The notes under the pieces: model-generated | The model's input: only the letters and a program-made list of their open reading frames with translations | The model's database searches: none | Told to the model about the DNA's origin: nothing | In this document: positions 37,638 to 63,700 of the stretch, piece after piece | Numbering within the stretch: the first letter of the stretch is position 1 | Layout: each line of letters starts with the position of its first letter | Program-made: the position numbers and the translations under genes | Assembly: GCA_037139515.1 (NCBI GenBank) | Contig: JBAXGH010000003.1 | Coordinates: 12,800 to 76,799 of the forward strand | Origin: a bacterium | GTDB taxonomy: Bacteria; Patescibacteriota; Patescibacteriia; JBAXGH01 | Direction: 5' to 3' | DNA: 64,000 nt

Positions 37638-39488
37638 TCACTCCACCGTCACGCTCTTCGCCAAGTTTCTCGGCATATCCGGGTCGTGACCTCGCTTCAC
37701 CGCCATGTGATACGCGAGCAGCTGCAGCGGGATCGTCGCGAGAATCGCGTCCGTGACCGGTGAACCGCCGGATGGAATCCGGACTTCAAAGAACTCCGGA
37801 ACCTCCTGCAGGTCTTCGCTCGAAATCACGATGACCTGCGCGCCGTTCGCCTTGAGTTGCCGAATCGTGAGCCGCGTCTTTTCGAGCAATGAATCACTCG
37901 GGCAGAGCACGACGCACGGCGTGTCTTTCTCGATGAGCGCGAGCGGTCCGTGTTTCAACTCCCCCGCCGCGTAGCCTTCCGCATGAACGTAGGCGATCTC
38001 TTTCAGCTTGAGCGCGCCTTCGAGCGCAATCGGGTACATGTAGTCTCGCCCGATGTAGAACATTCCGCGTGTGTCCTTCAGGAAAGCCGCCAAGTCTTCC
38101 ACCTTCTTCGAGGCGGCAAGACCCTGAAGCAACTTTTCAACCTTGTGCGGCAGGCTCATGAGAGCTGCCACAATCCTCTGACCCTCAGCGAGCGAGAGTC
38201 CGCACGCACGCCCGAGGTATAGCGCGATTTCGGCCATGACCGCGAGCTGGCAAACGAACGCCTTGGTCGAAGCCACGCCGATTTCAAATCCAGCATGCGT
38301 GTACACTCCCCGTTTGCACTCGCGCGCAATCGAGGATCCGACCACATTCACGATGCCGAATGCCTGCGCTCCCCGGCGCTTGGCTTCCCGCACCGCTTCG
38401 AGCGTATCGTAGGTTTCGCCCGACTGCGAGATGGCGAAAACCACCGTTCCTTCCGGCATCGCAACGTTCGAGTAGCGGAACTCGCTCGCGAACATCACGC
38501 GCACCGGAATCCGCGCCAAATCCTCGATCATCTTCGCGCCCACAAGTCCGGCGTGATAAGCCGTACCGCAAGCGAGGATGATGATATTCGTAGCTCCCGC
38601 GAGAACCGCTTCGTGATTCCGAATGCCGCCGAGAATCGCAAGCCCGTCATACGAATCCAGACGCCCGGCGAGCGTGTCCCGAAGCACCTTGTCCTGCTCG
38701 TTGATTTCCTTCAGCATGAAGTGAGGGAAACCACTCTTCTGGATCTCATCGACCGTGAGATTGATTCTCTCGACCGAACGCGCGACCTGCACGTTTTCAA
38801 AAGTGCTGATCCGGTACGAACCGCGCGCTCCGAGAACCGCCATCTCACCATCTTCCATATAGATGACTTCTTTCGTGTGCGCCACGATCGGACTCGCGTC
38901 CGACGCGACAAAGACTTCGCTTTCTCCAATCCCGAGCACAAGCGGGCTTCCAAATCGCGCCGCAACCAAGGTATTCGGAATCTGCGAATGCATCACGACG
39001 ATGCCGAAGGTCCCGCGGAGCTGCTTCACCGTTTCGCGCACCGCTTCCACGAAGTTCGCGCCTGCGACCATATATGACTCGATGAGATGCGCGATCACTT
39101 CCGTATCAGTTTCCGAGGTGAAAACGTGCCCCGCGCCTTCGAGAGCCTTCTTAAGCGCGACGCAGTTTTCAACCTGTCCGTTGTGCACAACCTGAATCTC
39201 ATTCGTGCAGTCGGCGTGCGGATGCGCATTCTCTTCCGTCTTGCCACCATGCGTCGCCCAACGGTTGTGTCCGATGCCGTAGGTTCCCTTCAGCTTCTCT
39301 TCCTCCGCGATGGCACGAATCTGCGCGATTGCGGTCTTTCCAACCGCACGAATTTTCCGCAACTCCAGTCCCCCATCACCAATCGCGATGCCCGCCGAAT
39401 CATACCCTCGGTACTCGAGCCTTTTCTGCCCATCCAGAATAATGGGCCAGGCTTGTTTCTCACCAATATATCCGACCACTCCACACAT
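37638..39488 (-). CDS. glmS: Glutamine--fructose-6-phosphate aminotransferase (isomerising)
   Basis: MCGVVGY N-terminal Ntn Cys, two SIS domains, and the C-terminal ...LAKSVTVE. GC content is about 58% against about 45% in flanking genes. Confidence 0.95.
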   Translation of the reverse strand: MCGVVGYIGEKQAWPIILDGQKRLEYRGYDSAGIAIGDGGLELRKIRAVGKTAIAQIRAIAEEEKLKGTYGIGHNRWATHGGKTEENAHPHADCTNEIQVVHNGQVENCVALKKALEGAGHVFTSETDTEVIAHLIESYMVAGANFVEAVRETVKQLRGTFGIVVMHSQIPNTLVAARFGSPLVLGIGESEVFVASDASPIVAHTKEVIYMEDGEMAVLGARGSYRISTFENVQVARSVERINLTVDEIQKSGFPHFMLKEINEQDKVLRDTLAGRLDSYDGLAILGGIRNHEAVLAGATNIIILACGTAYHAGLVGAKMIEDLARIPVRVMFASEFRYSNVAMPEGTVVFAISQSGETYDTLEAVREAKRRGAQAFGIVNVVGSSIARECKRGVYTHAGFEIGVASTKAFVCQLAVMAEIALYLGRACGLSLAEGQRIVAALMSLPHKVEKLLQGLAASKKVEDLAAFLKDTRGMFYIGRDYMYPIALEGALKLKEIAYVHAEGYAAGELKHGPLALIEKDTPCVVLCPSDSLLEKTRLTIRQLKANGAQVIVISSEDLQEVPEFFEVRIPSGGSPVTDAILATIPLQLLAYHMAVKRGHDPDMPRNLAKSVTVE

Positions 39489-45842: not shown

Positions 45843-46412
45843 TCAAATATCAATTTTTCTAATGATGATTCTTCCCATGGCCGCCACCCCTTCATTACGC
45901 TGCATCTCATCAGAACAGTTATTTAGTACAACAAGCTTACGCAGCTTATCTGCTTTTCGAATAAGCGGTAAAGAGAATGGCCTAAATTCGTTCTTCACTC
46001 TTTGTCTAAATAACTGGCTCATATTGTTTGTAGAGTCACCAGGTCTCTTGCCTCGACTTATATATCTGCGTTCAGCCTCACTTGTTTTGACTCGGATATA
46101 TATTACAACGCTAACTTTAAAACCAAGTATACCGAGCATTTCTTCAAGCCACATGTTTCCGCTTTGATGAACAGGGCTAAAATCCAAAACAAGTCCACCT
46201 AAATACTTCCCTGGCAGGCGAAGGAGTTCGAGTTCCAAAAATGCCGTTGCCAGATCGTGCGTCTCTGGTAACACTCCGGACAACCTTCCAGCCCGAAGCA
46301 CATCACCCATCGAAAGGAACGGAATTCGTAAGTATTCCGCTATTTCCCGACCGACAGTTGTTTTTCCTGAACCAGGCATGCCTAGAACAAGAATTACCGG
46401 CTTTTCTCGCAT
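45843..46412 (-). CDS. P-loop nucleoside/nucleotide kinase-like protein (adenylate-kinase superfamily)
   Basis: Walker A LVLGMPGSGKTTVGREIA; size and layout are consistent with NMP-kinase-like proteins. Its substrate is unknown. Confidence 0.5.
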   Translation of the reverse strand: MREKPVILVLGMPGSGKTTVGREIAEYLRIPFLSMGDVLRAGRLSGVLPETHDLATAFLELELLRLPGKYLGGLVLDFSPVHQSGNMWLEEMLGILGFKVSVVIYIRVKTSEAERRYISRGKRPGDSTNNMSQLFRQRVKNEFRPFSLPLIRKADKLRKLVVLNNCSDEMQRNEGVAAMGRIIIRKIDI

Positions 46413-46439: not shown

Positions 46440-46475
46440 ATAAAAAAAGCCACGCCTTTGAGACGTGGCGAGCTC
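46440..46475 (-). terminator. Rho-independent terminator (minus strand) downstream of the radical SAM gene
   Basis: On the minus strand: GCCACGTCTCAAAGGCGTGGC followed by TTTTTTT. Confidence 0.6.
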
Positions 46476-46478
46476 CGA

Positions 46479-47366
46479 TTATGGCATCTTGCCATAGCAA
46501 GCGAGTCGCTCGCGGATGTAGAGTTCAAGCCTACGAAGGTGCGCTTCATGCTGTTTGATGAACATAGCCTCGTCGAAAGCACAGATATTCATCGAAAGCG
46601 GTGCGCTATTGCCGATGGCAAGATCACCACTCGGGAGAACAAAGACCTTGTCCACATAACGCTCCGTATAGTTCGGAGCTACGATACACCCTCGCGGAGC
46701 AACACGCTTCACATCCTCCACGACGGTGCTAAACAACTGCTCTGAAATACCGTAACTATCGAACACGCTAGCGCCCATGCCGTGAGGCCGAAATTGGTAA
46801 AGGCGCCAAATGTCGACACGAATGTTCTCAAGAAGCTTCGCGATGCCAACGACGGAATGGGCGTTCACACTGGAAACGACCGTCGCGATCTTGATGGTTC
46901 CCTTGAACCCTGACTCCGAGAATAGTTTCGCTATCCAGAGGTTATGAGGGAGCAGATGTCCAACGTCGCGCATAACAGCTTGCACATCTTCCATTGAGGC
47001 ATCAATCGGAAGGTGAAGCATATCAAGCTTCGGCGCGATCCTCTGCACATCCTCTGGTGCGAGCAACAAACCGTTCGTATTGAGAGAGGTATAGATACCA
47101 CGAGATTTCGCAAACTCGATTAAGTCAAAAACAGCTTCCTTGAACAACAAAGGCTCGCCGCCACCTATGGCGATACCCGGAATCGTCATGTGCTTAAAAC
47201 TCAATGACGATTCAAGAAAACGCTTCAGTGCAATGAAATCAACGTGTCCCTTGACGGCTTTACTATTGATGCACATCGCGCAATTGAGCTGACATGCTTG
47301 CGTGATCTGAACATCAAGTATTGCCGTTCTACCTAATCCGGTGAAGATAGGAGAATTATTGACCAT
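46479..47366 (-). CDS. Radical SAM enzyme (single 4Fe-4S, no SPASM tail), function unknown
   Basis: CQLNCAMC (CxxxCxxC) and the GGGEPLL SAM-binding glycine motif. The start is taken at MVNNSPIF... (the track ORF extends to 47438). It lies in a GC-rich island. Confidence 0.75.
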   Translation of the reverse strand: MVNNSPIFTGLGRTAILDVQITQACQLNCAMCINSKAVKGHVDFIALKRFLESSLSFKHMTIPGIAIGGGEPLLFKEAVFDLIEFAKSRGIYTSLNTNGLLLAPEDVQRIAPKLDMLHLPIDASMEDVQAVMRDVGHLLPHNLWIAKLFSESGFKGTIKIATVVSSVNAHSVVGIAKLLENIRVDIWRLYQFRPHGMGASVFDSYGISEQLFSTVVEDVKRVAPRGCIVAPNYTERYVDKVFVLPSGDLAIGNSAPLSMNICAFDEAMFIKQHEAHLRRLELYIRERLACYGKMP

Positions 47367-47479
47367 CGTTCTCTCCCTCGCACAATCATCCGATATTCGG
47401 ATGATCACCTGTATTCTTAGTACACTACTAGAAAGCACCCGTCAAATATCCGTAACAAGCTTTACGCAAAACATGAGAT

Positions 47480-47506
47480 AAAAAATCAGGACCCGTCGGG
47501 TCCTGT
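47480..47506 (-). terminator. Rho-independent terminator (minus strand)
   Basis: On the minus strand: CAGGACCCGACGGGTCCTG followed by ATTTTTT. Confidence 0.55.
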
Positions 47507-47523
47507 GACTGGCGCGACGAGGT

Positions 47524-48117
47524 TTAGTCGTCGTGGTATTCGATGAGGCAGAAAGAGCCTTGGGTCAGCTGGCCCGGCTGTTCACCGAGCAAAAGCTTGA
47601 AGCGCGTGAGCGGATTCGCGAAATGCAGACGAAGCGCCGTACCGTGCCCAACGATGACCGGAACCGTTTCCTGGCTCGCGAGAGCATCACGATGAACCCG
47701 ATGGAAACCATCTTGATACCGCTTGCGCACCTGGTCAGCATTCTCCCCACCGATCTGGGTGAAGTCGAAGCCGTCCGAACTCGTTCGATAGCATTCCTCA
47801 GGGAAACGCTCGTGCGCGGTCCCCTTGGTAAGACCGGCCATCTTCCCAATGTCGACTTCTCCAAACTTGGCCTCTTGAATTACCCGCGAACCAGTCTGGA
47901 ACGAAATCAGATTTCCGGTGCGCAACGAACGAATCAGAATCGAAGTCCAAACAGTACCAGCGCGACAGTTGTCGATTCCGGCGATTGCCCGCCCAAGCGC
48001 GCTCGCCTGCATTTCCCCCTTGGCATTCAAATCAACGTCTTGAATGCCGCTGTAGATTCGCTTGGCGTTGTTGTCAGTCTCGCAATGCCTCGTGATGATC
48101 ATGCGTGTTTTTCGCAT
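47524..48117 (-). CDS. Histidine phosphatase superfamily (phosphoglycerate mutase-like) protein
   Basis: IITRHCETDNN is the RHGE(S/T)xxN catalytic motif. The start is taken at MRKTRMII (the track ORF extends to 48177). Confidence 0.7.
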   Translation of the reverse strand: MRKTRMIITRHCETDNNAKRIYSGIQDVDLNAKGEMQASALGRAIAGIDNCRAGTVWTSILIRSLRTGNLISFQTGSRVIQEAKFGEVDIGKMAGLTKGTAHERFPEECYRTSSDGFDFTQIGGENADQVRKRYQDGFHRVHRDALASQETVPVIVGHGTALRLHFANPLTRFKLLLGEQPGQLTQGSFCLIEYHDD

Positions 48118-48255
48118 GTCTTTCTCCTCTCCTGTGTGGGATTCTCGGAATTTAGCAAAATAAGAACGATTTAGCAACAGGCTCTATACTTAGGCAAAAA
48201 AATCCGGCCTGACTGCGAGGTGCAGCCTGGCCGGGTGAAACTTGGGCGCTTCGGA

Positions 48256-48603
48256 TTACACAATCGCGTGATGGACGACGCCGTCCCTGCACACGCAGAG
48301 CAGCATCCGCACATGAACCTGGGTACACCAGCTCATGTGCTTTTTTGTGTATTCATCGACGATCTTCGCGACCTTTTCCCTGACGGCCGCGGGCGCATCA
48401 GTTGGCATCCGAGCATCAAGGTCAAGGTCGATGAAGACCGTGAGCTTCGTAGCACCAGAGTACTCGGAAAGAACATGCACGCAAACTTCCGGCTTGAATT
48501 CCGGAGTGCTGAGGCATTGCTGCATGGCATCTTCCAGGCTATGCCGAAGTGCGCGCTGTTCTCCGGCTGACGGCAAACCGTAAACGCGAATCACAACCGC
48601 CAT
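48256..48603 (-). CDS. Hypothetical protein
   Basis: 115 aa in the GC-rich island; no family recognised. Confidence 0.35.
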   Translation of the reverse strand: MAVVIRVYGLPSAGEQRALRHSLEDAMQQCLSTPEFKPEVCVHVLSEYSGATKLTVFIDLDLDARMPTDAPAAVREKVAKIVDEYTKKHMSWCTQVHVRMLLCVCRDGVVHHAIV

Positions 48604-48621
48604 CTTCGCCTCCTTCCGCCG

Positions 48622-49176
48622 CTACGGAACTTGAATCCGCTTGGCCTTGTCGATGTTCACGGTACCGCGGTACAGAACATGCGGCACGAGATGATATCGC
48701 CGAAACTTGTCTCCCACTTTCAGGCTTCGGAAATACGCCCGGGCGGCTTCGGGGAGAGTCTTTCCGTAGGCTACAAGCGCTCCCGACGTGTACGGCACGA
48801 ATTCGTCGTCCGAGAACTCCTCTTCATTCGCGTTCGGAGCCTTGGAGTAGACGAAGATTTCGAGCTTCTTCGGATCGAAGTGCCGCGTGTCGATTTCGAA
48901 GAAATCGCGCGGGAAAGGCTTTCCGGTATGCGCGACCTCCTCCCAGATCTCAAAAGGGTGAACTGGGCAGAAGTGCAGAACATCGTTCCAGAGGCAGTTG
49001 CCGAGCGCCTTGATATGCCGACGCATGAGCCACTCACGATCGTTCTGATCCTCAATTGGAAGGTACTTCGCAAGCGCTTTTGCGTGAGCGTCAGGCGCTA
49101 CTTTGAGTAGCTCATTCAGCGGAATCAGCTCTTTGCCGACCATTTCCGACGGAACCTCATGGTAAAGAGAAGCCAT
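48622..49176 (-). CDS. Hypothetical protein
   Basis: 184 aa in the GC-rich island; no family recognised. Many overlapping antisense ORFs here are compositional artefacts. Confidence 0.4.
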   Translation of the reverse strand: MASLYHEVPSEMVGKELIPLNELLKVAPDAHAKALAKYLPIEDQNDREWLMRRHIKALGNCLWNDVLHFCPVHPFEIWEEVAHTGKPFPRDFFEIDTRHFDPKKLEIFVYSKAPNANEEEFSDDEFVPYTSGALVAYGKTLPEAARAYFRSLKVGDKFRRYHLVPHVLYRGTVNIDKAKRIQVP

Positions 49177-49330
49177 GTTACACCTCGCTTTCTACCTGCT
49201 TGTCCGGGCGGAATCATATGTAATTTTCAGCGAAATGTCAATAATCGCTCACAGACTTGACAAAATCGCGATTTTTAGCTTAAATACGAGGCGGATAACC
49301 TTTACCAAAACCCCCGAAGGGAGGCCGAAA

Positions 49331-49906
49331 ATGCCGCGTTCATTCAAGCTTTACATGTTCCGTGAAAGTCAGGTGGGGGTCGAGCCATACCAATACTCGC
49401 TTTCACCCCATGGTTTCAACCTGGCACGCCAAATCGGCGGCCGCTACCTGAAGGATTGCGATTTCACCGATTTCATCATACCGGGGACGCTGCGTTGCAT
49501 GCAGACCCTAGGCGCCATGAGCGAAGGTGCCAAAGACTGGACAACGGGTTTGATTCGGCACGAACCCAAGCTCCTTAGCCGGAAGCACAAAGAGCTGAAG
49601 GAACTCATCAGCGAGATTGAGAGCGACAACCTCAATGTTCTCATGAGGTCGGAGCCGAAGCTTTTCAAGGCGTTCCAGACCGAACTCATCGTCACGCTCT
49701 GGAAGACACTGCGCGAGATGAAGATTGAGACCGATAGCAGAGTCTTGATGATTGTCCACGACGCGCAAGCCGAGAGCATCGTGGAGGCGCTCACGGAAAA
49801 GGTCATCGACCCGCTCAAGCACTGCGAGGGGTTGATGCTCAACATGAGCTACTCCTTCTGGCGAATCGACGCCACGAAGTTCCCAACAGAGTTTCGAAGC
49901 ACCTGA
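49331..49906 (+). CDS. Hypothetical protein (possibly a degenerate histidine-phosphatase-like fold)
   Basis: A GGGAGG Shine-Dalgarno sits 9 nt upstream of the ATG at 49331. LYMFRESQ and IVHDAQAESIVEAL loosely echo RHGE and the second-His blocks of histidine phosphatases, but the catalytic residues are not conserved. Confidence 0.4.
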   Translation: MPRSFKLYMFRESQVGVEPYQYSLSPHGFNLARQIGGRYLKDCDFTDFIIPGTLRCMQTLGAMSEGAKDWTTGLIRHEPKLLSRKHKELKELISEIESDNLNVLMRSEPKLFKAFQTELIVTLWKTLREMKIETDSRVLMIVHDAQAESIVEALTEKVIDPLKHCEGLMLNMSYSFWRIDATKFPTEFRST

Positions 49907-50024
49907 ACCAGCCCACCCCGCACGAAGCCCCCGGTCCAACTCGGATCTGGGGCTCTTTATTTACAAATAAAATATCCCGCCGAAGCACGAGGCCGCAGCG
50001 GGGAGAAGCACGGTCGAAGGAGCG

Positions 50025-50585
50025 CTACTGCACATTCATCTCCGCCGCATCGAAGAGTCGCGTAAAATAACTCGCGAATCTGCGGATGATGCGTTCAGCG
50101 TCGGAGCGCGAAATCGGATAGCCGGCGGGCGTGACTTCGACACCGAGAAGGGACTTCCAAAGCCAGTCAAAAGTCCCGTTTTTTCTTTCGATGTGAGCGC
50201 GCCAGGGATCCTCGACGGGCTCTGCCACGGAATCGTCCAGGATATCCCAGCCGACGCCGATCAGGTCGCACTCCGTCCCGATTGGCTTTCCACAGCCCAG
50301 GCTCACAAAAACACCGGTCGAGCCGTCTTCAGAATCGGGGTTCACCTCGCCATAGACGCAAATCTTGTATTCGCCCTTCCTGACTTCGTAAAGGACGGTT
50401 GAATGTAGCTCGAAGTCGGGTGTGAGCTTGGCGCAGGAAAATTCGTCAACAAGCCCAACCTGCTCGTTCGTGCCTGGCACTGCGCTATTTGCATAAGGTC
50501 CAATCCGCACACCCTCCGAGCGAAGAATTTCGAAGACCTTCTGGAGATTCTTTGAAACCCGGTCCCAGTCTTCACGGCCATTCAT
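50025..50585 (-). CDS. Hypothetical protein
   Basis: 186 aa, acidic; no family recognised. Confidence 0.4.
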   Translation of the reverse strand: MNGREDWDRVSKNLQKVFEILRSEGVRIGPYANSAVPGTNEQVGLVDEFSCAKLTPDFELHSTVLYEVRKGEYKICVYGEVNPDSEDGSTGVFVSLGCGKPIGTECDLIGVGWDILDDSVAEPVEDPWRAHIERKNGTFDWLWKSLLGVEVTPAGYPISRSDAERIIRRFASYFTRLFDAAEMNVQ

Positions 50586-50740
50586 CGATACCTCCTTTGT
50601 CCACGAGAAAATTACGGTTTTTCCGGGGTTGTGTCAAATTAAGGACAGCGCACCTGACCGCCTTGACAAAATACTCCTTTTTGCATAGGTTGACCCAGTC
50701 CGCTGTTCGCTAGTTCACTGACAACGAAAGGAGTTTCCCC

Positions 50741-52363
50741 ATGCTCGAAGTCCTGCTCATTGCCCAGATTCTCACGCTCACAACCGACGATGTGCTCCCC
50801 GAAGTCATCGACCTCTTCACGAGTGGTCGCAAAATCCAACAGCATGGCGTCACCCGAATGATGGGCTATGCGAAAAGCAATGAGTCCCGTGGCGTCGCAG
50901 CGAAAAACAGCGATGAGCTTCGCAAAGTCAACGGTGACTTTCGAATTCACGGCAATCTCTTTTGTGAACCAACAAAGGTCAAGCTCGGAAAATGCAAAGC
51001 CAACAGCTTCGGCTTCACTGGCTCCATTGAACCGCTGCGCTATCTGACGATGTCTGAGGAATCCTATCTGCGAGGAGATGTCGTCATCTGGTACTCGCTT
51101 TGGCATGACGAGGCTGCGCAACAAATCTATTTGGGGGTGTCGTTCGTTTTCACCGATGCTGTCCAGCCGGATCCGACATTCACTGGCCTCAAGACCGCCT
51201 ATGATTTGCTCCTCGACATCAAAACGATGGAACAGAGAGCTCATGTCGCCAATCTCATCCTGGAAATCATCTACGGCCACAATGATAAACAAACCATAGA
51301 CGATGCCTGGAGAGCTTTTGGTTCGCCCTTCAACGTCTTCAACGGCAGAACCATCAGGTTCACGGAGAAAAAAGGCGTTAGCCTTCTCGTCGCCCGCAAA
51401 AAGTACAAAAACCACGTCGATGAAATCCTGGACCAAGCTCCGGTTGCAATCGGCGGGTATTTCGGAAGATTCTTGCCGGGTGAAAGTCACGCCTTTGTCG
51501 GCTATGAAAGCCCGGAAGAGCTTCTAGCCGATTTAGAAAACAATCCTTCCGACGGAGGCACAGCTGAGCTTCTGATTGCCCTTGACCACGATGACGCGCG
51601 CCGATCGATCATCATCACGGTACACGAAAACAATTCTTCACAGGACACGCTCGAAGCGGCTTCGCATAGAGATTCGCTGCCGCTCGTCGCCTATATTCGC
51701 CTGCCGATGACAAATGAACGTGAAGGCGCGATTGCTCAGGACGTGGTTTCGACGCTGATTGAAGGCCCCAAGCTGAATGATGGGCCAGCGCTTAGAACTG
51801 TTCTGTACAACACTTCTCCGATTCAAATCGGTAGCGTGGACGGACAGGAAGAGACATCTGTGCTTAGCTGGATTGCAAGCCTCGCTATCATACTCACGGT
51901 CATCATCGTGATTTGGCGCGATATCGCGAGGCGTACGAAAAAACCGCTCGCTCCGGTGAACGAAACCAAAAAGCTTCCGGAACCGGTCGACTCGGCCGCG
52001 GTTCAAGCAGCTGCACTCGCCGAACGCGAACGCAAGCTTGAAGAGCGACGACGCCGTCAGGAGGAAGAAGCTCAGGCGCTCGCGAACAAGAATTCGCCAC
52101 CCGCACCAGAGCCTCCGATTACGCTTGCGGATATCAAGCCGCTCCGCGATAGGCTCGTGAAATACCTTGAGGACCCTGATCTGTCTGAAGAGGCCCGCGA
52201 AACCTACGAATTCCAGCTCCGACGCGCGGACGAGGAAGACCGCCTCCCGCGCAAGAAGAAGTTCTTCGAGTATGCGGTGAGTCGGATGCCAGTTGAGGAA
52301 CCCGAGGCCGAGAACGACGATTCTGAACAAGGTCCTGATTCAAACCCCAGCCAAACGGCGTGA
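50741..52363 (+). CDS. Hypothetical single-pass membrane protein with a charged coiled-coil C-terminus
   Basis: GAAAGGAG Shine-Dalgarno before the ATG. One TM (VLSWIASLAIILTVIIVIW) splits a ~390-aa N-domain from an ER/K-rich tail. The antisense ORF 50639..51490 is treated as an artefact. Confidence 0.45.
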   Translation: MLEVLLIAQILTLTTDDVLPEVIDLFTSGRKIQQHGVTRMMGYAKSNESRGVAAKNSDELRKVNGDFRIHGNLFCEPTKVKLGKCKANSFGFTGSIEPLRYLTMSEESYLRGDVVIWYSLWHDEAAQQIYLGVSFVFTDAVQPDPTFTGLKTAYDLLLDIKTMEQRAHVANLILEIIYGHNDKQTIDDAWRAFGSPFNVFNGRTIRFTEKKGVSLLVARKKYKNHVDEILDQAPVAIGGYFGRFLPGESHAFVGYESPEELLADLENNPSDGGTAELLIALDHDDARRSIIITVHENNSSQDTLEAASHRDSLPLVAYIRLPMTNEREGAIAQDVVSTLIEGPKLNDGPALRTVLYNTSPIQIGSVDGQEETSVLSWIASLAIILTVIIVIWRDIARRTKKPLAPVNETKKLPEPVDSAAVQAAALAERERKLEERRRRQEEEAQALANKNSPPAPEPPITLADIKPLRDRLVKYLEDPDLSEEARETYEFQLRRADEEDRLPRKKKFFEYAVSRMPVEEPEAENDDSEQGPDSNPSQTA

Positions 52364-52404
52364 CCGTACGGCTGGTTTTTTATTAAACGAAGATGCGCAA
52401 TGAT

Positions 52405-53355: not shown

Positions 53356-53487
53356 TAGCTGTCACCCCGAGCCCTCCTATGCTGTCATCCTGGACCTCGC
53401 CGTCGTCATCCCGAAGCCCCCCCGCTGTCATCATGGGTCTCCCCGTCGTTACCCCGAGCCCCCTGCTGTCATCCCGAAGCCGAGGGA
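53356..53487 (+). repeat. Tandem array of six degenerate ~22-bp repeats (consensus about GCTGTCATCCCGAAGCCCCCC)
   Basis: Units start at about 53356, 53379, 53401, 53422, 53444 and 53462. The last unit, TGTCATCCCGAAGCCGAGGGATC (53465-53487), is identical to 55755-55777. Confidence 0.7.
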
Positions 53488-53500
53488 TCTTGAAATGTGG

Positions 53501-55731: not shown

Positions 55732-55777
55732 CGTTGTCATCCCTGCCATCACGTTGTCATCCCGAAGCCGAGGGATC
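55732..55777 (+). repeat. Two-unit copy of the ~22-bp repeat, ending in the same 23-bp sequence as 53465-53487
   Basis: CGTTGTCATCCCTGCCATCA then CGTTGTCATCCCGAAGCCGAGGGATC. Positions 55755-55777 equal 53465-53487 exactly. Confidence 0.7.
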
Positions 55778-57017: not shown

Positions 57018-57241
57018 ACGCCTGATTGATAAAAGCCTTTTATAACCAAAACGCTCCCCTGATCCTCTCCTGCGATATCAAGATTTTTATATTCCTGAAA
57101 ATTGACACCGCCGAGAGCAACGCCGGAGCCAAAAGAGACTCCGGGGCCGACTATAACCCCGTTCACATTAATCGCCCGTAGAGGCGTAAGCGTCCCATCA
57201 GGATTCTCCTTAAAAACAGAAAAGAATCTGTATCTCGTCAT
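57014..57241 (-). CDS. Small hypothetical protein, third gene of the defence operon
   Basis: 75 aa, Gly-rich (GPGVSFGSGVALGG). It overlaps the methyltransferase gene by 4 bp. Confidence 0.4.
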   Translation of the reverse strand: MTRYRFFSVFKENPDGTLTPLRAINVNGVIVGPGVSFGSGVALGGVNFQEYKNLDIAGEDQGSVLVIKGFYQSGV

Positions 57242-60200
57242 AAAGTTGTTTGCACTATACTCAAACGTCCGTTAGATTTTTCTAAATTAACACCCGTTTC
57301 TAATTCTGCGAGCTGATTCAGCGTGAGCCCGAGAGCACTTTTTAGTCCAAAGACAGCATCAAGCAATTGACATTCGATACTATTAAATTCCTCGCGTACT
57401 CTTAAATATGATTTGCCCTCTTCACCGTCAGATTCTCTCTTTAAGTGAAGAACGATCGACTCGCTCTCTTTGGTAATATTAACAATCTGACAATTATCCC
57501 TATCTAGAAAATCCGACGCACCCTTGAGCGTATGTGCGACGTCTCCAACACGAAACAATTCATTTATTTTCATAAAGTGTTTTTTATTCTCGATGATTTC
57601 TATTTCTGCAGGAGTAAAGCCGTAGAGTTCATAAACCATATGATCGATCTGATTTTCAAGGATATCAGTATCGGCTTTAGAATTGGATTGTTTCATAACT
57701 ATAATCTGGTCAACAATCAATTCAATCTGAGTGGAAATCTCTTTTTGTAGTGGTGAATCTATTATTGGAACCCGCACCTCTCGTAAGTGCCTAGGGTAAA
57801 AGTGCAAACCATTCGCAAACAGCTCTGCAAAATACCACGAGGACACCCTACAGTTTAAAACTCCGAGCATGTATCTAAGACTGTACTTTCTCGAATTTGA
57901 TATTTTTTCATCAGTAAATACGGATTTCAACTGACGATATTTCAATCCTCTTAGGATGTAATATGGAACGGCGTTTATGAGTGCGTCATTATTATAAAGC
58001 CCATTAGTATCCAACACCGCCTGTATTCCAGATCTGCCGACTATGTTTTTTACTATAATCTTTTCAGCCTCAAAAAGTTCTGGAAAAACAGGAGCTTTGT
58101 GCTTCTCTGGCTCGTAACTTAAGTACTTAATTTCATTTATTGAGTATCGATCGAAATATTTTCCCTCAATATACATCTTGAGCCCGGGCGAAAACTGATC
58201 CCTGATATATTCTTCTTTCTTTATCTGGTTCACAGTACTATGAAGTTCTGCACCTTTTGAAATATATAAAATATCGTCCATTACTATAGATAACGACTGA
58301 ATCTTCTTTAACAGCTTGATTTTATCTACAGACAGACTGATCTTAAAGTTTCTCTCTTCATTAAGCTTAAAGAATTTCGTATTTATTTGGGTCATTTTCA
58401 GTTCATCAAGTCTTGGAACATCCCCACTTTCATGAAAATAGATATTTAAGTCATAGTCATGCCGCTGTTGAATTTTTTGTATCAATGTAATTTGAGTATC
58501 AACCATTGCTGACTTGAAAACTCTATATGCAGAGAAATCGATTAGACTTATTATTTTATAGCCCAAAAAAATATTTCTAATTCCCTGGCCATATGATTGA
58601 GCCATCCATTTGTTGCTTGTTATATAAGACAGAACGCCTCCATCCTTAAGCAGATTGAGTCCGCGCTCATAAAAGATTATGTATAAATCATAATGTCCAT
58701 TCGCACTTAAATAGTTCTTCTCGAAATACTTTTTTAATAGGTCATCTATCTTCCAGATGCTTACATACGGCGGATTGCCGATTACAATATTAAAACCTTT
58801 CACACCAAACATGAACTCAGCGTCAAAAAACTGACACGAATTTTCACTATCAAATGGTAAATAGGTTTTCAACTGTTTAGTTTTTTCCGACGACCCGAAT
58901 AGACCTTCCTGCTGTTGTTGCAAAGACAAGAAGTCTGCTTTCAATCTTTTCTTTTTAGTAATGCTTTCCGTTTTAAAATATTCGTCTCGAATAGCCTGTA
59001 TCTCTTTAGCGAGATGAGTAGAATTATCACCAAGCATGACTGCGCTCTTTCCTGTTTGAAGAGGTAACAACGTATTCGCACACACGAACTTGAAATCCAA
59101 GTTCGGCAACGGTTCGATGCCCATGTTTTTTGCTTTTGGATTTAGTTCTTCATCAACTAAGATGGAAAGCCATGCTCGGAGGCGGGCAATATCTATTGCC
59201 ATCGGCTCGATGTCGACGCCGTAGAGGTTATTTTTTATAATCGCGAGCTTGGTTTTATAGACATCAAAGCGCGTTTCAAGGCGCTCATATATTGAAAGCA
59301 TGAGCTGCAACATACCCATCGGAAAGGCACCGGAACCGCAGGCGGGGTCGAGGATCTTCGCATCATCCAGCGCGTCAATCAGATATTTCTTATAGGGTGT
59401 AAGGTCTTCTCGATAATTACGGTTATCAAACTCGTGCTCTTTTTTGTCCAAAAGCAACTCAAGTATATGGGAGCGCTTATTATCATCCGGCAACTTCCCC
59501 TCCAAATACGCGCGCATGCTCTCGCGGCACATGTAGTCTACAATTTCACGCGGGGTGTAAAATGCACCTTTCGCCTTGCGCGCCTGCTCGCCAGCTTCAT
59601 CCGTCTGCTCGGCAAGTAAGTTCTCAAAAATGCGCCCTAACATCTCCGGATCGATGGCGACTTGCTGAAACGTACTCGTGCTTTCGTCTGTCGTAAAATT
59701 ATATTGATTGAGAGCCGCAAAAAAACGATCAAAATAATCTTTCGGAAAATTAATCTTCGTTTCACCGAAGTGATCCGTTGGGCGTGGCTCAAAAAGCCCG
59801 CCGTTCAGATATGGTGTCTCTGTATCCGTTGAGAACAAGTGTTTTGGTGTTTCAACTTTACCAAAAAGATCACGTTTGACGCCGGATTGGCGCTCACGAT
59901 CTTCTAATGGGGTATTTAAGACCTGAAAAAAAAGTTTTTCGAGTTTTGCGCGGTAGTATTCTGACGAGGCTATGCTTTCGGTCTCAAAATATTTATGAGC
60001 ATCAGCAATAATTCCCTTTCGCCGCAGGAACCAGCAGAAGATTAAACGACCAATAAGGCGGTTTGCAAAGAGCCGCGCATGTTTCTTATCAAAAATTTCT
60101 TTTGTCGACACATGCTCCACGAGCTCCGCGAAGAATCCAGCAATTTCCTGATAGAACTTTTTATTGAGCGGTTGCAGGTCAAAACTCTGCCAGATCATCC

Positions 60201-60765
60201 CGTGAACTTCAGCTTTTTTTGTAAAATCAAAAGGACCTTCCCATTTTGCGAGAATCTCTTGTTGGGTGACGGTTAACGCTCCGTGTAACTCGAGGGTACG
60301 GATTGCGTATTTGTTAGAAAGCACGAGAACGACACGATCTGCCTCTTTTGGAACGATAATGTCAACACCAATCGGCTCATGCGCAAAAAATGGTTCATCC
60401 TCAAAGTTTGGAGTCAATGCAACGACGGCTGAAATGATGCGTTTGGAGGTTTTTTGTACCCAATACAACTTAAAATCAAGATTTTTGCCATTCCCTTCAG
60501 CAACCTTGTAGCAGGCGCGACGATCACTAAACCCAGCCGCCTCCATAAACCAACCCGCATGATCACGGATCTTTCCCTTTGAATCATTAAAAGGCTTTGG
60601 AGAAGTATCTGCCGCAACACCAAAAAGACCCGAGATTGCATTCGTCACCTCAAGAGCATGAGCAAATGATGGCTCGGCAGACAACTTCAAGAGAGCCTCC
60701 TGAAGCAGTTTTAACTTTACTGGAATATTATTTGTTGTCCTTGGCATAATAGAGGATTCCCTCAA
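57238..60765 (-). CDS. Type IIG/PglX-like N6-adenine DNA methyltransferase (gamma class) with a large N-terminal helical region and a C-terminal target-recognition region
   Basis: MmeI/PglX-type helical linker blocks are present (LIGRLIFCWFLRRKGII, FFQVLNTP, YLNGGLFE). Methyltransferase motifs follow: GAFYTPREIVDYM, ILDPACGSGAF (motif I), NIVIGNPPY (motif IV), then about 450 aa of putative TRD. The N-terminal PD-(D/E)xK-like region appears degenerate (LDFKLYWVQK). Confidence 0.8.
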   Translation of the reverse strand: MRESSIMPRTTNNIPVKLKLLQEALLKLSAEPSFAHALEVTNAISGLFGVAADTSPKPFNDSKGKIRDHAGWFMEAAGFSDRRACYKVAEGNGKNLDFKLYWVQKTSKRIISAVVALTPNFEDEPFFAHEPIGVDIIVPKEADRVVLVLSNKYAIRTLELHGALTVTQQEILAKWEGPFDFTKKAEVHGMIWQSFDLQPLNKKFYQEIAGFFAELVEHVSTKEIFDKKHARLFANRLIGRLIFCWFLRRKGIIADAHKYFETESIASSEYYRAKLEKLFFQVLNTPLEDRERQSGVKRDLFGKVETPKHLFSTDTETPYLNGGLFEPRPTDHFGETKINFPKDYFDRFFAALNQYNFTTDESTSTFQQVAIDPEMLGRIFENLLAEQTDEAGEQARKAKGAFYTPREIVDYMCRESMRAYLEGKLPDDNKRSHILELLLDKKEHEFDNRNYREDLTPYKKYLIDALDDAKILDPACGSGAFPMGMLQLMLSIYERLETRFDVYKTKLAIIKNNLYGVDIEPMAIDIARLRAWLSILVDEELNPKAKNMGIEPLPNLDFKFVCANTLLPLQTGKSAVMLGDNSTHLAKEIQAIRDEYFKTESITKKKRLKADFLSLQQQQEGLFGSSEKTKQLKTYLPFDSENSCQFFDAEFMFGVKGFNIVIGNPPYVSIWKIDDLLKKYFEKNYLSANGHYDLYIIFYERGLNLLKDGGVLSYITSNKWMAQSYGQGIRNIFLGYKIISLIDFSAYRVFKSAMVDTQITLIQKIQQRHDYDLNIYFHESGDVPRLDELKMTQINTKFFKLNEERNFKISLSVDKIKLLKKIQSLSIVMDDILYISKGAELHSTVNQIKKEEYIRDQFSPGLKMYIEGKYFDRYSINEIKYLSYEPEKHKAPVFPELFEAEKIIVKNIVGRSGIQAVLDTNGLYNNDALINAVPYYILRGLKYRQLKSVFTDEKISNSRKYSLRYMLGVLNCRVSSWYFAELFANGLHFYPRHLREVRVPIIDSPLQKEISTQIELIVDQIIVMKQSNSKADTDILENQIDHMVYELYGFTPAEIEIIENKKHFMKINELFRVGDVAHTLKGASDFLDRDNCQIVNITKESESIVLHLKRESDGEEGKSYLRVREEFNSIECQLLDAVFGLKSALGLTLNQLAELETGVNLEKSNGRLSIVQTTL

Positions 60766-63700
60766 CAGTATCAGGAGTCATGACCGGTCGAATCTCGGAA
60801 TTCGTGAGTTTAGCTAGAACGATGATCTCCTTCAGTTTCTCATGGTAGGGCATATTTTCTCGGCGTGCCTTTATAATGTCTCTTGTGAGTTTCCGCATCT
60901 TACCATCATCAATCACATTTCGAGTACCGAAGCCAGCCTGCACCGACTGGATATCTTCGGCGGAATATTGTAACTCATACAACGTGCGTAGAATTTCTGT
61001 TTGCTGGCCAACTGGAGCGCCCGGCTCATCTTCGTCGTGGTACGCACCAATATTCCTCGCAGTAATCTCAGCGATCCGGGCACGGTCTATGGAAATCTGG
61101 TCTTTATCATGAGAGCCGTCTTCCGAAGTCGCTCTAATCCATTCCAGCGCTTGCAACGCCGTCACCGCCGCAAACCGCTCACCAGTTTTTTCCATCTGGG
61201 CAAATTGCATGCCGATTGGATTACCCCGATCAAGCAGTCGCGCGCAAGCGAGCACATCCGGACGATCACTTCCGATGTGTTTCCGGCTCGGCAAAACTCC
61301 CCACTTTCCCCTTGGAAGATTATAGATATGTTGCTTATACCCTTCTGAATTTTCTGGATTCTTATCGAACTTCTTAAGGTCGAAAATGTATTCATCTTCA
61401 GAAAGTAAAAAGTCCGCGCTCGATTCCAGCTTCGTGAATGCAGCTTTTCGAACCTCGGAATCTTCGCTATATACATCCTCGAGACTATCCGTGTACTCAA
61501 TCGGGTTTGGTAATTCGGTAAGTACCGATTGATCCGTGCCGATCGTGAATCGGATCAATTCAATCTTGCTCTGCAAGCGGCCAACAAGCCGCAAATAGCC
61601 TTCGAGCTTTTCTTCTGGACTCATGTTGTACACATAGACCGTGCTATGCGTCGAACCAAGACGATTCACACGACCATTGCGTTGAATCATACGCACTGGA
61701 TTCCAATGAAGGTCGTAGTTCACGATCACACCGCAATCCTGCAAATTTTGACCTTCAGAGAGCACGTCCGTGGAAAAAAGATACTGAAGTTCGTGTTCGC
61801 CCGTACCGATTGTGTGATTTTTAGAATTCGGGGAAAAACGCGCCGCGAGGTCATCTGCACTCTCGCGGTTTTTAGAGGAAACGAAAGCGGAGTTCTCTTT
61901 AGTGATAAGTTTGGTGAATTCGGGCAAGTTCTTTTCAAGATATTTGATGGTATCCGCAAAGTACGAGAACACCAAAACCTTGCCTCCCGCAACATTTTCT
62001 TTCCGTAATTTTTCAAGCAACTCTATGAACGAACGAAGCTTAGTATCGTCGGCTTCTACGATAGCGAGCTGCCGCAGAAGATGCTTAATGATCAAGCGCT
62101 CCTTCCCCATGTCCGCACCAAGCTCTTGGGCTGCATAGTTATTAGCGCCGATTGTATCAAGAATCAATTTATCATCCGCCTCCACAGCATCATCGTGTTC
62201 AATATCTTCATCTTCTTCGGCCAACATCTGTTCGAGTGCGTCCATGTCCTTTAAGCTCACAATTTTATCCTTTGCTACGCCGGCCTGAAACATATCTAAC
62301 TTACGATCGTATGCCTCAAGTGATGTTCGGAAGGCGAAAATAGAAGATTCCATTCGCTTCAAAAATATGGTACGCAAAATTCCGTACATTCCCATCTGGA
62401 GCTGTAAATCACGCCCCTCCTCCGAACCGAGCTTCAGCGCCTTGATCTGCTCAGGCGTTTTACCGTAAAACTTTGTCTGATAGATTCTCCATCGATATGG
62501 AATAAATCCCAACATGAGCACCATCTGATAAATAAAATACATTGGCGATTCACTCGCAAGTTCCTCGGTGCTTTTGAACTCCTTTACATTATCGAGCTGA
62601 TCAAGTGGATGTAGTAGACTTTTGCAGTCGTTAAAAATCGCCTCAGGGGTTGCTGCATATATCTTTTCCAGAGGAAGGAAACCGGATTCCAGTGCGAGAA
62701 TCTTTTTTCGAGCATCGGGATGAAAATCGTATTTTTGGTTTTCGGGCACAGAAGCTGGAAAACTCATCTTCTTTCCGTCGAGCGTGAGAAAACCATATTC
62801 TTTCTCAATGCCTTGGCGAGTACGTCGAACGACAAAATGGCGGATGATGGGCATCATCGTCTGTCGAACATAGTCATAATCGATTGTTCCGCCCCTCGTG
62901 ACATCCTGACGAATCTTTTTTTCAAGATTTTGGATCGCTTGGTAAAAGCTCACCATGCTCGTTTGCTTAGTTTTATGATCCACAAGCGGAATTTTGAAAA
63001 CATCCTGGTCGCCACGCGCTCCCAAGAGAATCTGATTTGTGATATCGCTTAATTGATTGTTGATTGGGGTCGCCGTAAGCAGTAAAACGTGCGCCTTTGG
63101 ATTTTGTCGCATCCATGCAAGAAGCTGTTCGTATCGCTGGCCAGAAGTACGTCGCAGGTTGTGCGATTCATCAATAACGAAAAGTGAGACGCTCGCGATA
63201 CGGTCGAGTTTCTGCGCCTCTTCAATCGCTCCCTTATTCTGAAAAACCCGAGGTTCAAAGTTCATCACGCCCTGCGTGAGCAGCTCTTGCGTCCATTGTT
63301 TTTTGAGCGATTTTGGACAAATAACTTCCACGCGCATTTTTCCCTCGCTTCCATCAAGGTACTGCTTCATCACTTCGATCGCAGTATAGGTTTTTCCTAA
63401 ACCAACTGAGTCAGACAGCATTGCAACTCTGTGCTTGTTGATGCGCCGCAAGAGCGCCTGTACGTTCTTTTTTTGAAAATCCATCAACTCATGCGCTCCA
63501 CGAATCGTAGATTGAACCGCTTCATCCTCCAACTCCTCATGATAAATCTCAAAAAGGGTCTTTATGTACATCTCGTATGGACTAAAAAGCTCATCACCAA
63601 TTGGAGATTCGCCAAGAATCTCTACAAATTTTCCGTCCCAATGTTCAGTTGTTTCGTCATTCCAAAGCTCATCAAACCAAAATAGATGTCCGACTTCCTG

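What the first reader, a model, noticed from the sequence alone, without database searches (positions are those of the whole stretch)
46440..52400. GC-rich ~6-kb island: radical SAM enzyme, histidine phosphatase and five orphan proteins
From the terminator at 46440 to about 52400 the GC content rises to about 55-57%. The segment encodes a compact radical SAM protein (CQLNCAMC, GGGEPLL, no SPASM), a PGAM-like histidine phosphatase (RHCETDNN), a possibly degenerate second phosphatase-like protein, three small orphans, and a 540-aa single-TM protein with a charged coiled-coil tail. Genes are on both strands, each with its own terminator, which is island-like. A radical SAM enzyme paired with a phosphatase could form a nucleotide- or metabolite-modifying module (compare viperin-like or tRNA/rRNA-modifying radical SAM enzymes), or a small-molecule pathway acquired laterally.
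Basis: partly seen in the sequence, partly recalled or inferred. Interest (0 to 1): 0.6.

Follow-up and report, generated by a model that had tools for sequence, protein, structure and literature searches.

The report
Viperin-like radical SAM, kinase, phosphatase cluster
A slightly GC-rich, probably foreign 6-kb block beside phage-defence genes carries a very rare enzyme from an unnamed sister family of the antiviral protein viperin, flanked by a phosphatase and a nucleotide kinase, so it may make a modified nucleotide, although no experiment supports this yet.

Summary
The GC rise is smaller than stated: 53% against 47% overall, and GC3 0.55-0.75 against 0.49.

The radical SAM protein (46479-47366, minus strand) is not a housekeeping enzyme. 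An exhaustive search of 1.84 billion representatives found only 8 proteins at E<=1e-30. By sequence profile and by predicted fold its closest characterised relatives are viperins. It fails viperin membership: 77 bits against a 180-bit cut-off, and several active-site positions differ (N77, H79, K120, Y302 become D, Q, G, K). It belongs to an unnamed sister family of about 280 aa.

It is a rare NMP kinase (45843-46412) whose homologues directly follow a compact radical SAM gene in 4 of 4 loci examined, with a NUDIX hydrolase upstream in two. In the window a catalytically intact histidine phosphatase sits where the NUDIX would be.

However, the enzyme's two closest relatives pair with a methyltransferase instead. 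The window's trio is therefore unique, and each gene has its own terminator. The five orphans have no detectable homologues. The "second phosphatase" is not supported.

My best reading is a nucleotide-modifying, possibly antiviral, module (confidence about 0.4).

The parts
45843..46412 (-). Short-LID nucleoside-monophosphate kinase-like protein (189 aa).
   Evidence: P-loop GMPGSGKT. Pfam AAA_17/ADK match the N-terminus. The AlphaFold model has pLDDT 90.9. The top Foldseek PDB hits are adenylate and UMP/CMP kinases over the full length, TM 0.65-0.76. Only 12 homologue clusters exist. In the 4 of 4 loci examined, the homologue directly follows a 322-323-aa radical SAM gene.
46449..46469 (-). 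Intrinsic-terminator-like hairpin plus U-run between the radical SAM gene and the kinase gene.
   Evidence: 9-bp stem with 6 GC pairs, followed by T7. Folding energy -16.6 kcal/mol.
46479..47366 (-). Compact radical SAM enzyme (295 aa) with cluster cysteines C25/C29/C32 and no SPASM domain. It belongs to an unnamed family that is sister to viperin.
   Evidence: Pfam Radical_SAM E 6.5e-19. The best NCBIfam match is viperin_w_prok at 76-77 bits, below the 180-bit cut-off. Foldseek: the top 17 PDB hits are all viperins. Family profiles against PDB put 9 viperin sequences first, at 6e-40 to 2e-35. Only 8 proteins reach E<=1e-30 among 1.84e9 representatives. Residue map.
47487..47505 (-). Intrinsic-terminator-like hairpin after the phosphatase gene.
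   Evidence: 8-bp stem with 6 GC pairs, followed by a T-run. Folding energy -15.6 kcal/mol.
47524..48117 (-). Histidine phosphatase, superfamily branch 1 (197 aa), with an intact catalytic set.
   Evidence: Pfam His_Phos_1 at 107 bits against a 21.7-bit cut-off. The best NCBIfam matches (CobC alpha-ribazole phosphatase, PspA) are all below their cut-offs. Alignment to PspA (4IJ5) conserves the RH, R, E and H catalytic residues. The homology search returned only the protein itself at E<=1e-10.
48204..48234 (-). Strong hairpin plus U7 after the 115-aa gene.
   Evidence: Local fold of -28.7 kcal/mol, followed by UUUUUUU. Sequence read.
48256..48603 (-). Orphan protein of 115 aa. It probably forms an operon with the 184-aa gene.
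   Evidence: GC3 0.65. No Pfam, NCBIfam, PADLOC or PHROG match. Singleton cluster annotated as hypothetical.
48622..49176 (-). Orphan protein of 184 aa.
   Evidence: GC3 0.67. No family match. Singleton.
49331..49906 (+). Orphan protein of 191 aa (243 aa if translated from the ATG at 49175).
   Evidence: GC3 0.75. No significant similarity to the phosphatase or to any PDB sequence. No family match.
50025..50585 (-). Orphan protein of 186 aa.
   Evidence: GC3 0.65. No family match.
50741..52363 (+). Orphan protein of 540 aa with one predicted TM segment (about 372-397) and an acidic, highly charged C-terminal tail.
   Evidence: Hydropathy and charge computed. No family match. It is not homologous to the ~540-aa proteins that sit next to the actinobacterial relatives.

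Best explanation
The GC-rich block is laterally acquired cargo in a variable, defence-rich neighbourhood. The part that can be interpreted is three co-directional genes: a histidine phosphatase, a viperin-related radical SAM enzyme and an NMP kinase. I propose they form a nucleotide-modifying module.

Proposed mechanism, by analogy with CMPK2 and viperin:
1. The kinase raises the pool of a phosphorylated nucleotide (inferred).
2. The radical SAM enzyme cleaves SAM at its C25/C29/C32 iron-sulfur cluster to make a 5'-deoxyadenosyl radical. The motif and fold are shown; the activity is inferred.
3. That radical abstracts a hydrogen from the nucleotide to give a modified nucleotide. Because the active-site lining differs from viperin's, the product may not be a ddhNTP (inferred).
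4. The phosphatase trims the product, or destroys it to protect the host. A NUDIX hydrolase holds this position in related loci (inferred).
5. The likely role is antiviral or antimetabolite (inferred from the neighbourhood only).

The window's trio looks like a recombinant. The kinase comes from a lineage of 'NUDIX, 323-aa radical SAM, kinase' modules. The radical SAM gene comes from a lineage normally coupled to a methyltransferase.
For: Relationship to viperin:
- Family profiles hit the 9 PDB viperin or viperin-like sequences first. With the 129-member profile these score 6e-40 to 2e-35 over the full length, ahead of SkfB (7e-30), BlsE (2e-28) and MoaA (4e-25).
- The top 17 Foldseek PDB hits are all viperins.
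- viperin_w_prok is the curated family matched by 127 of the 129 nearest relatives.
- K220 maps to K159, K247 to R188, and C314 to N253. Asn at the C314 position marks the promiscuous prokaryotic viperin pocket (Shomar et al. preprint).

Link to the kinase:
- The kinase has an NMP-kinase fold.
- Its rare homologues, 46-54% identical, lie 8 bp, 23 bp or -4 bp downstream of a compact radical SAM gene in L006, L007 and L008. L009 shows the same arrangement at a contig end.
- Literature: viperin works with the neighbouring kinase CMPK2, and 12% of bacterial viperins have a nucleotide kinase within three genes.

Link to a phosphohydrolase:
- An orthologous NUDIX gene lies divergently upstream in L007 and L008 (61% identical).
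- A NUDIX-radical SAM fusion (P0094) is among the window enzyme's relatives.
- The window's phosphatase keeps its catalytic residues.

Defence setting:
- The right flank carries PDC-S13, Fic/SoFic-like, a type IIG restriction-modification enzyme and an HKD+Snf2 helicase.
- A SIR2/ThsA-like fusion to a related radical SAM domain exists (P0070).

Foreign origin:
- GC3 shift.
Against: - The two closest homologues (45% and 38% identical) overlap a class I SAM methyltransferase gene, have no kinase or phosphatase nearby, and sit among housekeeping genes.
- The radical SAM proteins paired with the kinase elsewhere are only about 23% identical to the window's (about 22 bits), no closer than viperin is.
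- Strong terminators separate all three genes. The kinase's GC3 (0.37) is unlike the island's. The adjacency could therefore be a leftover from an insertion.
- No relative of the phosphatase was found, so its linkage cannot be tested.
- N77, H79, K120, R245 and Y302 of viperin are not conserved.
- The radical SAM model has only moderate confidence (pLDDT 73.5).
- There is no experimental evidence.
Confidence: 0.4

Rival explanations
1. The radical SAM enzyme has nothing to do with the kinase or the phosphatase. It is a stand-alone modifier, normally paired with a methyltransferase, of a small molecule or an RNA. It arrived on a GC-rich insertion that displaced the kinase's original 323-aa radical SAM partner at a recombination hotspot. 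The kinase is a relic and the phosphatase is unrelated cargo.
For: - The methyltransferase coupling is conserved in both close homologues, with overlapping genes; the two methyltransferases are 43% identical to each other.
- A terminator lies between the radical SAM gene and the kinase gene.
- GC3 jumps from 0.37 to 0.55 exactly at that junction.
- The relatives lie in non-defence contexts, next to ProRS, BipA and a cold-shock protein.
Against: - A foreign viperin-related enzyme would have to land by chance in the same position and orientation, 66 bp upstream of a kinase whose family is otherwise always preceded by a compact radical SAM gene, and with a phosphohydrolase on its other side.
- No methyltransferase remnant is present in the window.
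Confidence: 0.3
2. It is a genuine prokaryotic viperin (pVip) that makes ddhCTP, ddhUTP or ddhGTP with help from its neighbouring kinase.
For: - PADLOC pVip models match at E 9e-25.
- Viperin is the best structural and profile match.
- A nucleotide kinase is adjacent, as for 12% of bacterial viperins.
Against: - The NCBIfam viperin equivalog scores 77 bits against a 180-bit cut-off.
- The pairwise score to mouse viperin is 22 bits, while true viperins score 320-445 bits with each other.
- None of the 129 nearest relatives has N-x-H-x4-CxxxCxxC-F.
- N77, H79, K120, R245 and Y302 are replaced.
- The PADLOC match covers only the radical SAM core, residues 19-219.
Confidence: 0.1
3. It is a peptide (RiPP) maturase or a glycyl-radical-enzyme activase, and one of the small orphan ORFs is its substrate or partner.
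For: - Weak core-only matches to SPASM maturases, PflA and NrdG.
- Small orphan genes lie nearby.
Against: - No SPASM or twitch domain.
- No glycyl-radical enzyme in the window.
- The orphans are 115-540 aa, are not conserved next to any homologue, and are transcribed separately.
- The viperin match extends through the C-terminal half, which is not true of the maturase matches.
Confidence: 0.04
4. The 'island' is not foreign. The GC rise is ordinary gene-to-gene variation in this genome.
For: - GlmS, a core gene, is even more GC-rich (58%, GC3 0.70).
- There is no tRNA gene, no flanking repeats and no integrase-type Pfam hit among the proteins scanned.
- No related genome lacking the block could be found.
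Against: - Seven consecutive genes have GC3 0.55-0.75 against a background of 0.49 +/- 0.06.
- All seven are singletons or near-orphans.
- The setting is a mosaic, defence-rich region with sharp GC steps.
Confidence: 0.1

Closest known systems
Viperin / prokaryotic viperins (pVip; ddhNTP synthases; NCBIfam NF038283)
   Same: - CxxxCxxC radical SAM core.
- Predicted partial barrel with a C-terminal extension and no SPASM domain.
- Homology along the full length, including K-x-x-[ST]-V...N and W-[KR]-x-[FY]-Q.
- K220 and K247 equivalents are kept as K159 and R188.
- Asn at the C314 position, as in the promiscuous prokaryotic pocket.
- A nucleotide kinase next door.
- A defence-gene neighbourhood.
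   Different: - Scores far below the family cut-off (77 bits against 180).
- Has D-V-Q...C-I where viperin has N-Y-H...C-F.
- K120 becomes G, R245 becomes I, and Y302 becomes K.
- Only 22 bits pairwise to mouse viperin.
- Its closest relatives are coupled to a methyltransferase.
- The kinase is of the adenylate/UMP-CMP kinase type with a short LID. I did not compare it with CMPK2.
The 'NUDIX, 323-aa radical SAM, NMP kinase' module seen in loci L006-L009. I found no description of it in the held literature.
   Same: - The kinase is orthologous (46-54% identical).
- A compact radical SAM gene lies immediately upstream on the same strand.
- A phosphohydrolase lies upstream of that.
- The radical SAM proteins share motifs: D-x-x-I-T..CxLxCxxC, GGE[PA]L, W-R-L and P-[DS]-G.
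   Different: - The radical SAM protein is only about 23% identical.
- The phosphohydrolase is a histidine phosphatase on the same strand, not a divergent NUDIX.
- The genes are separated by terminators, whereas in those loci they are 8 bp, 23 bp or -4 bp apart.
CMPK2-viperin partnership in animals
   Same: A nucleotide kinase is genetically linked to a viperin-type radical SAM enzyme and is presumed to supply its substrate.
   Different: The kinase specificity here is untested, the enzyme is not a true viperin, and co-regulation is unknown.
OxsB/OxsA of oxetanocin-A biosynthesis (from my own knowledge; not tested here)
   Same: A radical SAM enzyme that acts on a phosphorylated nucleoside is paired with a phosphohydrolase, and together they yield an antiviral nucleoside analogue.
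   Different: OxsB is a cobalamin-dependent radical SAM enzyme and OxsA is an HD-domain phosphohydrolase. No homology was detected or tested.

Membership tests
Viperin / pVip (ddhNTP synthase) | CxxxCxxC [4Fe-4S] / SAM motif | tested here: met
   C25-x3-C29-x2-C32. Pfam Radical_SAM E 6.5e-19.
Viperin / pVip (ddhNTP synthase) | Partial (beta-alpha)6 barrel with a C-terminal extension that closes the barrel; no SPASM domain | tested here: met
   AlphaFold model, pLDDT 73.5. The top 17 Foldseek hits are viperins with 261-297 aligned columns and TM 0.65-0.75. The fold definition comes from the Shomar preprint. Model confidence is only moderate.
Viperin / pVip (ddhNTP synthase) | Score at or above the curated cut-off of NCBIfam NF038283 (180 bits) | tested here: not met
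   76.4-76.8 bits. The best of the 129 relatives reaches E 2.9e-50.
Viperin / pVip (ddhNTP synthase) | N-x-H upstream of the cluster motif and F after it (mouse N77, H79, F92). Their role as a family signature is from my memory of Lachowicz et al. 2021, a paper that is not held in the library. | tested here: not met
   D18, Q20 and I33. None of the 129 nearest relatives has N.H....C...C..CF.
Viperin / pVip (ddhNTP synthase) | Basic residues around the triphosphate and the active-site Tyr (mouse K120, R194, K220, R245, K247, Y302). Their roles are from my memory of Fenwick et al. 2020. | tested here: inconclusive
   K220 maps to K159 and K247 to R188. R194 aligns with D134, with R133 adjacent. 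K120 maps to G64, R245 to I186 and Y302 to K240. So the set is partly kept and partly replaced.
Viperin / pVip (ddhNTP synthase) | Nucleobase-binding residue in the beta-8 loop (Asn at the mouse C314 position in promiscuous prokaryotic viperins) | tested here: inconclusive
   N253, in a 'GN' motif conserved across the family, aligns with C314 (definition). The alignment and the model (pLDDT about 64-79) are uncertain in this region.
Viperin / pVip (ddhNTP synthase) | Production of 3'-deoxy-3',4'-didehydro-NTP; antiviral activity | not testable with these tools
   Needs biochemistry and phage assays.
NMP kinase (adenylate / UMP-CMP kinase superfamily) | P-loop plus the full NMP-kinase fold with NMP-binding and LID segments | tested here: met
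   GMPGSGKT. The model has pLDDT 90.9. The top 50 Foldseek hits are adenylate or UMP/CMP kinases.
NMP kinase (adenylate / UMP-CMP kinase superfamily) | Orthology to housekeeping Adk or Cmk (NCBIfam cut-offs) | tested here: not met
   Best score 39 bits against a 187-bit cut-off. Only 12 homologue clusters exist in 5.8e9.
Histidine phosphatase superfamily, branch 1 | Pfam His_Phos_1 above threshold, and the catalytic residues Arg-His...Arg...Glu...His | tested here: met
   107 bits against a 21.7-bit cut-off. The residues are conserved in the alignment to PspA 4IJ5.
Histidine phosphatase superfamily, branch 1 | Assignment to a specific equivalog (CobC, PspA, GpmA/B, SixA) | tested here: not met
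   The best is CobC at 69 bits against a 163-bit cut-off.
SPASM/twitch radical SAM peptide maturases | C-terminal SPASM or twitch auxiliary-cluster domain | tested here: not met
   No Pfam SPASM match. Only three scattered Cys residues follow the cluster motif.
Horizontally acquired genomic island | Base composition that departs from the host genome | tested here: met
   GC3 0.64 against 0.49 +/- 0.06, and the highest-GC 6-kb stretch of the window.
Horizontally acquired genomic island | Mobility hallmarks at the borders (tRNA gene, integrase, flanking direct repeats) | tested here: not met
   No tRNA gene in the window. No repeats flank 46.4 and 52.4 kb. No integrase-type Pfam hit among the proteins scanned in 37.6-64 kb.
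Horizontally acquired genomic island | Absence from closely related genomes | not testable with these tools
   The only matching contig is the same genome (L002). No close relatives were found in the genome or metagenome scans.

The most novel reading that the evidence does not exclude
The window's enzyme and the ~280-aa family around it are a second, uncharacterised branch of viperin-type enzymes. They would make nucleotide or nucleoside analogues other than ddhNTPs. Interchangeable accessory enzymes (NMP kinase, NUDIX, histidine phosphatase, methyltransferase, SIR2) would feed or process the product. The window would show a natural module swap that yields a new antiviral or antimetabolite compound.
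Probability: 0.2. Interest if true: 0.8.

Novelty: new variant of a known kind. Interest (0 to 1): 0.55.

Why it matters
Viperins make chain-terminating nucleotides and are one of the few immune mechanisms shared by bacteria and animals. A sister family with the same scaffold but a different active-site lining could be a source of new natural nucleotide analogues, which are potential antiviral leads. The family recurs next to enzymes that add or remove phosphates on nucleotides (NMP kinase, NUDIX, histidine phosphatase) and appears fused to SIR2. It would also show how such modules evolve by swapping partners. The claim can be tested directly with three small genes.

Tried and rejected
- Lachowicz et al. 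2021 is not held. The roles of N77, H79, K120, R194, R245 and Y302 therefore rest on my memory. Only the letters at those positions were verified, from PDB sequences.
- Scans for close relatives found none: genome contigs with the kinase profile (best hit a 35% match inside a giant Omnitrophota ORF, with no radical SAM nearby), metagenome contigs and viral contigs. The broad family alignment was too diverse for the locus finder.
- The phosphatase homology search returned only the protein itself. I set E<=1e-10, which may have hidden weak relatives.
- The contexts of P0041 and P0042 were on contigs too short to help.
- Considered and rejected: a MoaA, QueE, NrdG or PflA assignment (all weaker than viperin, core-only matches); a TYW1-like tRNA enzyme (E 3e-12 against 6e-40); homology between the window's 540-aa protein and the ~540-aa partner of the actinobacterial relatives (none); a second phosphatase at 49.2-49.9 kb; a methyltransferase, NUDIX or 323-type radical SAM remnant in the window (none).
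- Literature searches found no described radical SAM + NUDIX/kinase/phosphatase defence system in the held library. That is weak negative evidence.

Full report
**Observation**

Window GC is about 47%. The segment 46440-52400 is 53.2% and is the most GC-rich 6-kb stretch of the window. The shift is clearer at third codon positions. The seven genes from 46479 to 52363 have GC3 of 0.55-0.75 (mean 0.64), against 0.49 +/- 0.06 for 35 upstream genes.

All the ORFs and quoted motifs exist. The radical SAM protein has no SPASM domain. The 540-aa protein has one hydrophobic segment (about 372-397) and a tail that is 41% charged. Good hairpin plus U-run terminators follow the radical SAM gene, the phosphatase gene and the 115-aa gene. 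Weaker ones follow two others. The 184-aa and 115-aa genes look like an operon.

The window matches an NCBI MAG labelled only "bacterium". All island proteins are singletons at the 90% clustering level, and the orphans are annotated as hypothetical.

**The radical SAM enzyme (46479-47366, minus strand, 295 aa)**

It is very rare. A word-indexed search of 5.8 billion clusters gave 13 hits. An exhaustive HMMER search of 1.84 billion representatives gave only 8 proteins at E<=1e-30. The true close relatives are P0002 (45% identical) and P0039 (38%).

Beyond them lies a broad family of compact radical SAM proteins of about 280 aa. Its consensus is T..CN..C.FC / GGEPLL / L.TNG.LL / LPLDG / KI.TVV...N / W[KR]LYQF.P.G / Y..I.P.G / GN. 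No curated model names this family. The model matched by the most members is NCBIfam's viperin equivalog (127 of 129, best E 2.9e-50), and the window protein scores 77 bits against its 180-bit cut-off.

Against solved structures, profiles of the family put all nine viperin or viperin-like sequences first. With the 129-member profile they score 6e-40 to 2e-35 over the full length, ahead of SkfB (7e-30), BlsE (2e-28) and MoaA (4e-25) (the same order with a smaller profile). An AlphaFold model (pLDDT 73.5) has viperins as its top 17 Foldseek hits (E about 1e-12 to 1e-10, TM 0.65-0.75).

So viperin is the closest characterised relative, and the homology extends through the C-terminal half.

**It is not a viperin proper**

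I aligned the window protein to mouse viperin through the family profile.

| Mouse viperin | Window enzyme | Status |
|---|---|---|
| C84/C88/C91 | C25/C29/C32 | kept |
| K220 | K159 | kept |
| K247 | R188 | conservative |
| C314 | N253 | Asn, as in promiscuous prokaryotic viperins |
| R194 | D134 (R133 adjacent) | uncertain |
| N77 | D18 | changed |
| H79 | Q20 | changed |
| F92 | I33 | changed |
| K120 | G64 | changed |
| R245 | I186 | changed |
| Y302 | K240 | changed |

None of the 129 relatives has N-x-H-x4-CxxxCxxC-F. None scores above 87 bits with mouse viperin, and the window protein scores 22 bits. Fungal, cnidarian and mouse viperins score 320-445 bits with each other. The functional roles I attach to N77, H79, K120, R194, R245 and Y302 come from my memory of the structural literature. 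The paper I wanted was not held.

**The neighbours**

*Kinase.* Immediately downstream is a 189-aa P-loop protein (45843-46412), 66 bp away on the same strand, with a terminator in between. Its model (pLDDT 90.9) matches short-LID adenylate and UMP/CMP kinases over the full length. It scores far below the Adk and Cmk cut-offs and has only 12 homologue clusters, so it is not a housekeeping kinase.

In all four homologue loci I could read (L006, L007, L008, and L009 at a contig end), the kinase directly follows a 322-323-aa radical SAM gene, with gaps of 8, 23 and -4 bp. In L007 and L008 an orthologous NUDIX gene is divergently upstream. Those radical SAM proteins are 68-82% identical to each other but only about 23% identical to the window's. 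They share its motif skeleton.

*Fusions.* Among the window enzyme's relatives are a NUDIX-radical SAM fusion (P0094) and a SIR2/ThsA-like fusion (P0070).

*Phosphatase.* The window's histidine phosphatase (47524-48117) is a clear His_Phos_1 member with intact catalytic residues. No close relative was retrieved, and it sits where the NUDIX sits in the other loci.

*Literature.* Viperin cooperates with the adjacent kinase CMPK2, and 12% of bacterial viperins have a nucleotide kinase within three genes.

**Counter-evidence**

- Both close homologues of the window enzyme overlap a 217-aa class I SAM methyltransferase gene. The two methyltransferases are 43% identical to each other. Neither locus has a kinase or phosphatase, and both lie among housekeeping genes.
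- More distant actinobacterial relatives have their own conserved trio: a ~540-aa unknown, the radical SAM gene and a PfkB kinase.
- The window contains no methyltransferase, NUDIX or 323-type remnant.
- The kinase has GC3 of 0.37, and the island begins abruptly at the terminator between it and the radical SAM gene.

The window's arrangement is therefore a unique recombinant. Either it is a functional non-orthologous replacement, with a new radical SAM enzyme and a new phosphohydrolase placed beside an old kinase, or the insertion left the kinase as a relic.

**Setting**

To the right are PDC-S13 (Bro-N, E 5e-107), a Fic protein (PDC-S04/SoFic-like), a type IIG restriction-modification enzyme (E 3e-155) and an HKD+Snf2 helicase. 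This is a defence-rich mosaic with sharp GC steps. There is no tRNA gene, no flanking repeat and no integrase-type Pfam hit among the proteins scanned. No related genome lacking the block could be found.

The five orphans (115, 184, 191/243, 186 and 540 aa) have coding-like GC3 but no match in Pfam, NCBIfam, PADLOC or PHROGs. None recurs next to any radical SAM or kinase homologue. The proposed "second phosphatase" is unsupported.

**Verdict**

The finding is real and modestly interesting. It is a rare member of an unnamed sister family of viperin, on a compositionally foreign block in a defence neighbourhood, flanked by a phosphatase and a radical-SAM-associated NMP kinase.

I favour a nucleotide-modifying, possibly antiviral, module (confidence about 0.4). 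The main rival is an unrelated methyltransferase-type modifier that landed beside a relic kinase (about 0.3). A true ddhNTP-making viperin is unlikely (about 0.1). I class it as a new variant of a known kind. No function has been demonstrated.

Noticed in passing
window 53401-53489 and 55732-55777: Imperfect direct repeats (core CGTYGTCATCCCGAAGCCGAGGGATC) bracket the block that holds an 86-aa ORF, a GC-rich 273-aa orphan and the Fic gene. They could be cassette ends or regulatory repeats.
   Followed up: no
window 37638-39488: The GlmS gene is the most GC-rich gene in the window (58%, GC3 0.70). That exceeds the 'island' and shows that GC alone is not a safe marker of foreign origin here.
   Followed up: no
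window 57238-63940: A type IIG restriction-modification enzyme (E 3e-155) and an HKD(PLD)+Snf2 helicase (C3a139/DrmD-like) overlap by 38 bp. This looks like a two-gene defence system that runs off the end of the window.
   Followed up: partly
L006 9225-11392: About 1.6 kb downstream of the radical SAM-kinase pair lies a second cluster: an adenylate-kinase-like gene, a MoaA-like radical SAM gene (overlapping it) and a CYTH class IV cyclase/triphosphatase. It may be another kinase plus radical SAM nucleotide module.
   Followed up: partly
P0070 (756 aa; no locus): A fusion of a SIR2/ThsA-like (STALD) domain to a pVip-like radical SAM domain. It matches PADLOC pVip models over nearly their whole length (132 bits).
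   Followed up: partly
P0094 (435 aa; no locus): An N-terminal NUDIX domain fused to a radical SAM domain of the window enzyme's family. This matches the separate NUDIX genes in L007 and L008.
   Followed up: partly
L003 4138-8054; L004 4518-6867; L005 4376-8235: Actinobacterial relatives (about 30% identical) have a ~490-550-aa protein with no Pfam hit directly upstream of the radical SAM gene in all three loci. A PfkB-family kinase follows in L003 and L005. L003 and L005 also share a large divergently transcribed gene (58-59% identical) that I did not annotate.
   Followed up: partly
L010 4209-10640: In an Omnitrophota MAG, a kinase-like domain 35% identical to the window's kinase lies inside an apparent 2143-aa ORF with no radical SAM gene nearby.
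   Followed up: no
window 45843-46412: The kinase gene has the lowest GC3 in the region (0.37, about 2 sd below background). It may itself be foreign and from a different donor than the GC-rich block.
   Followed up: partly
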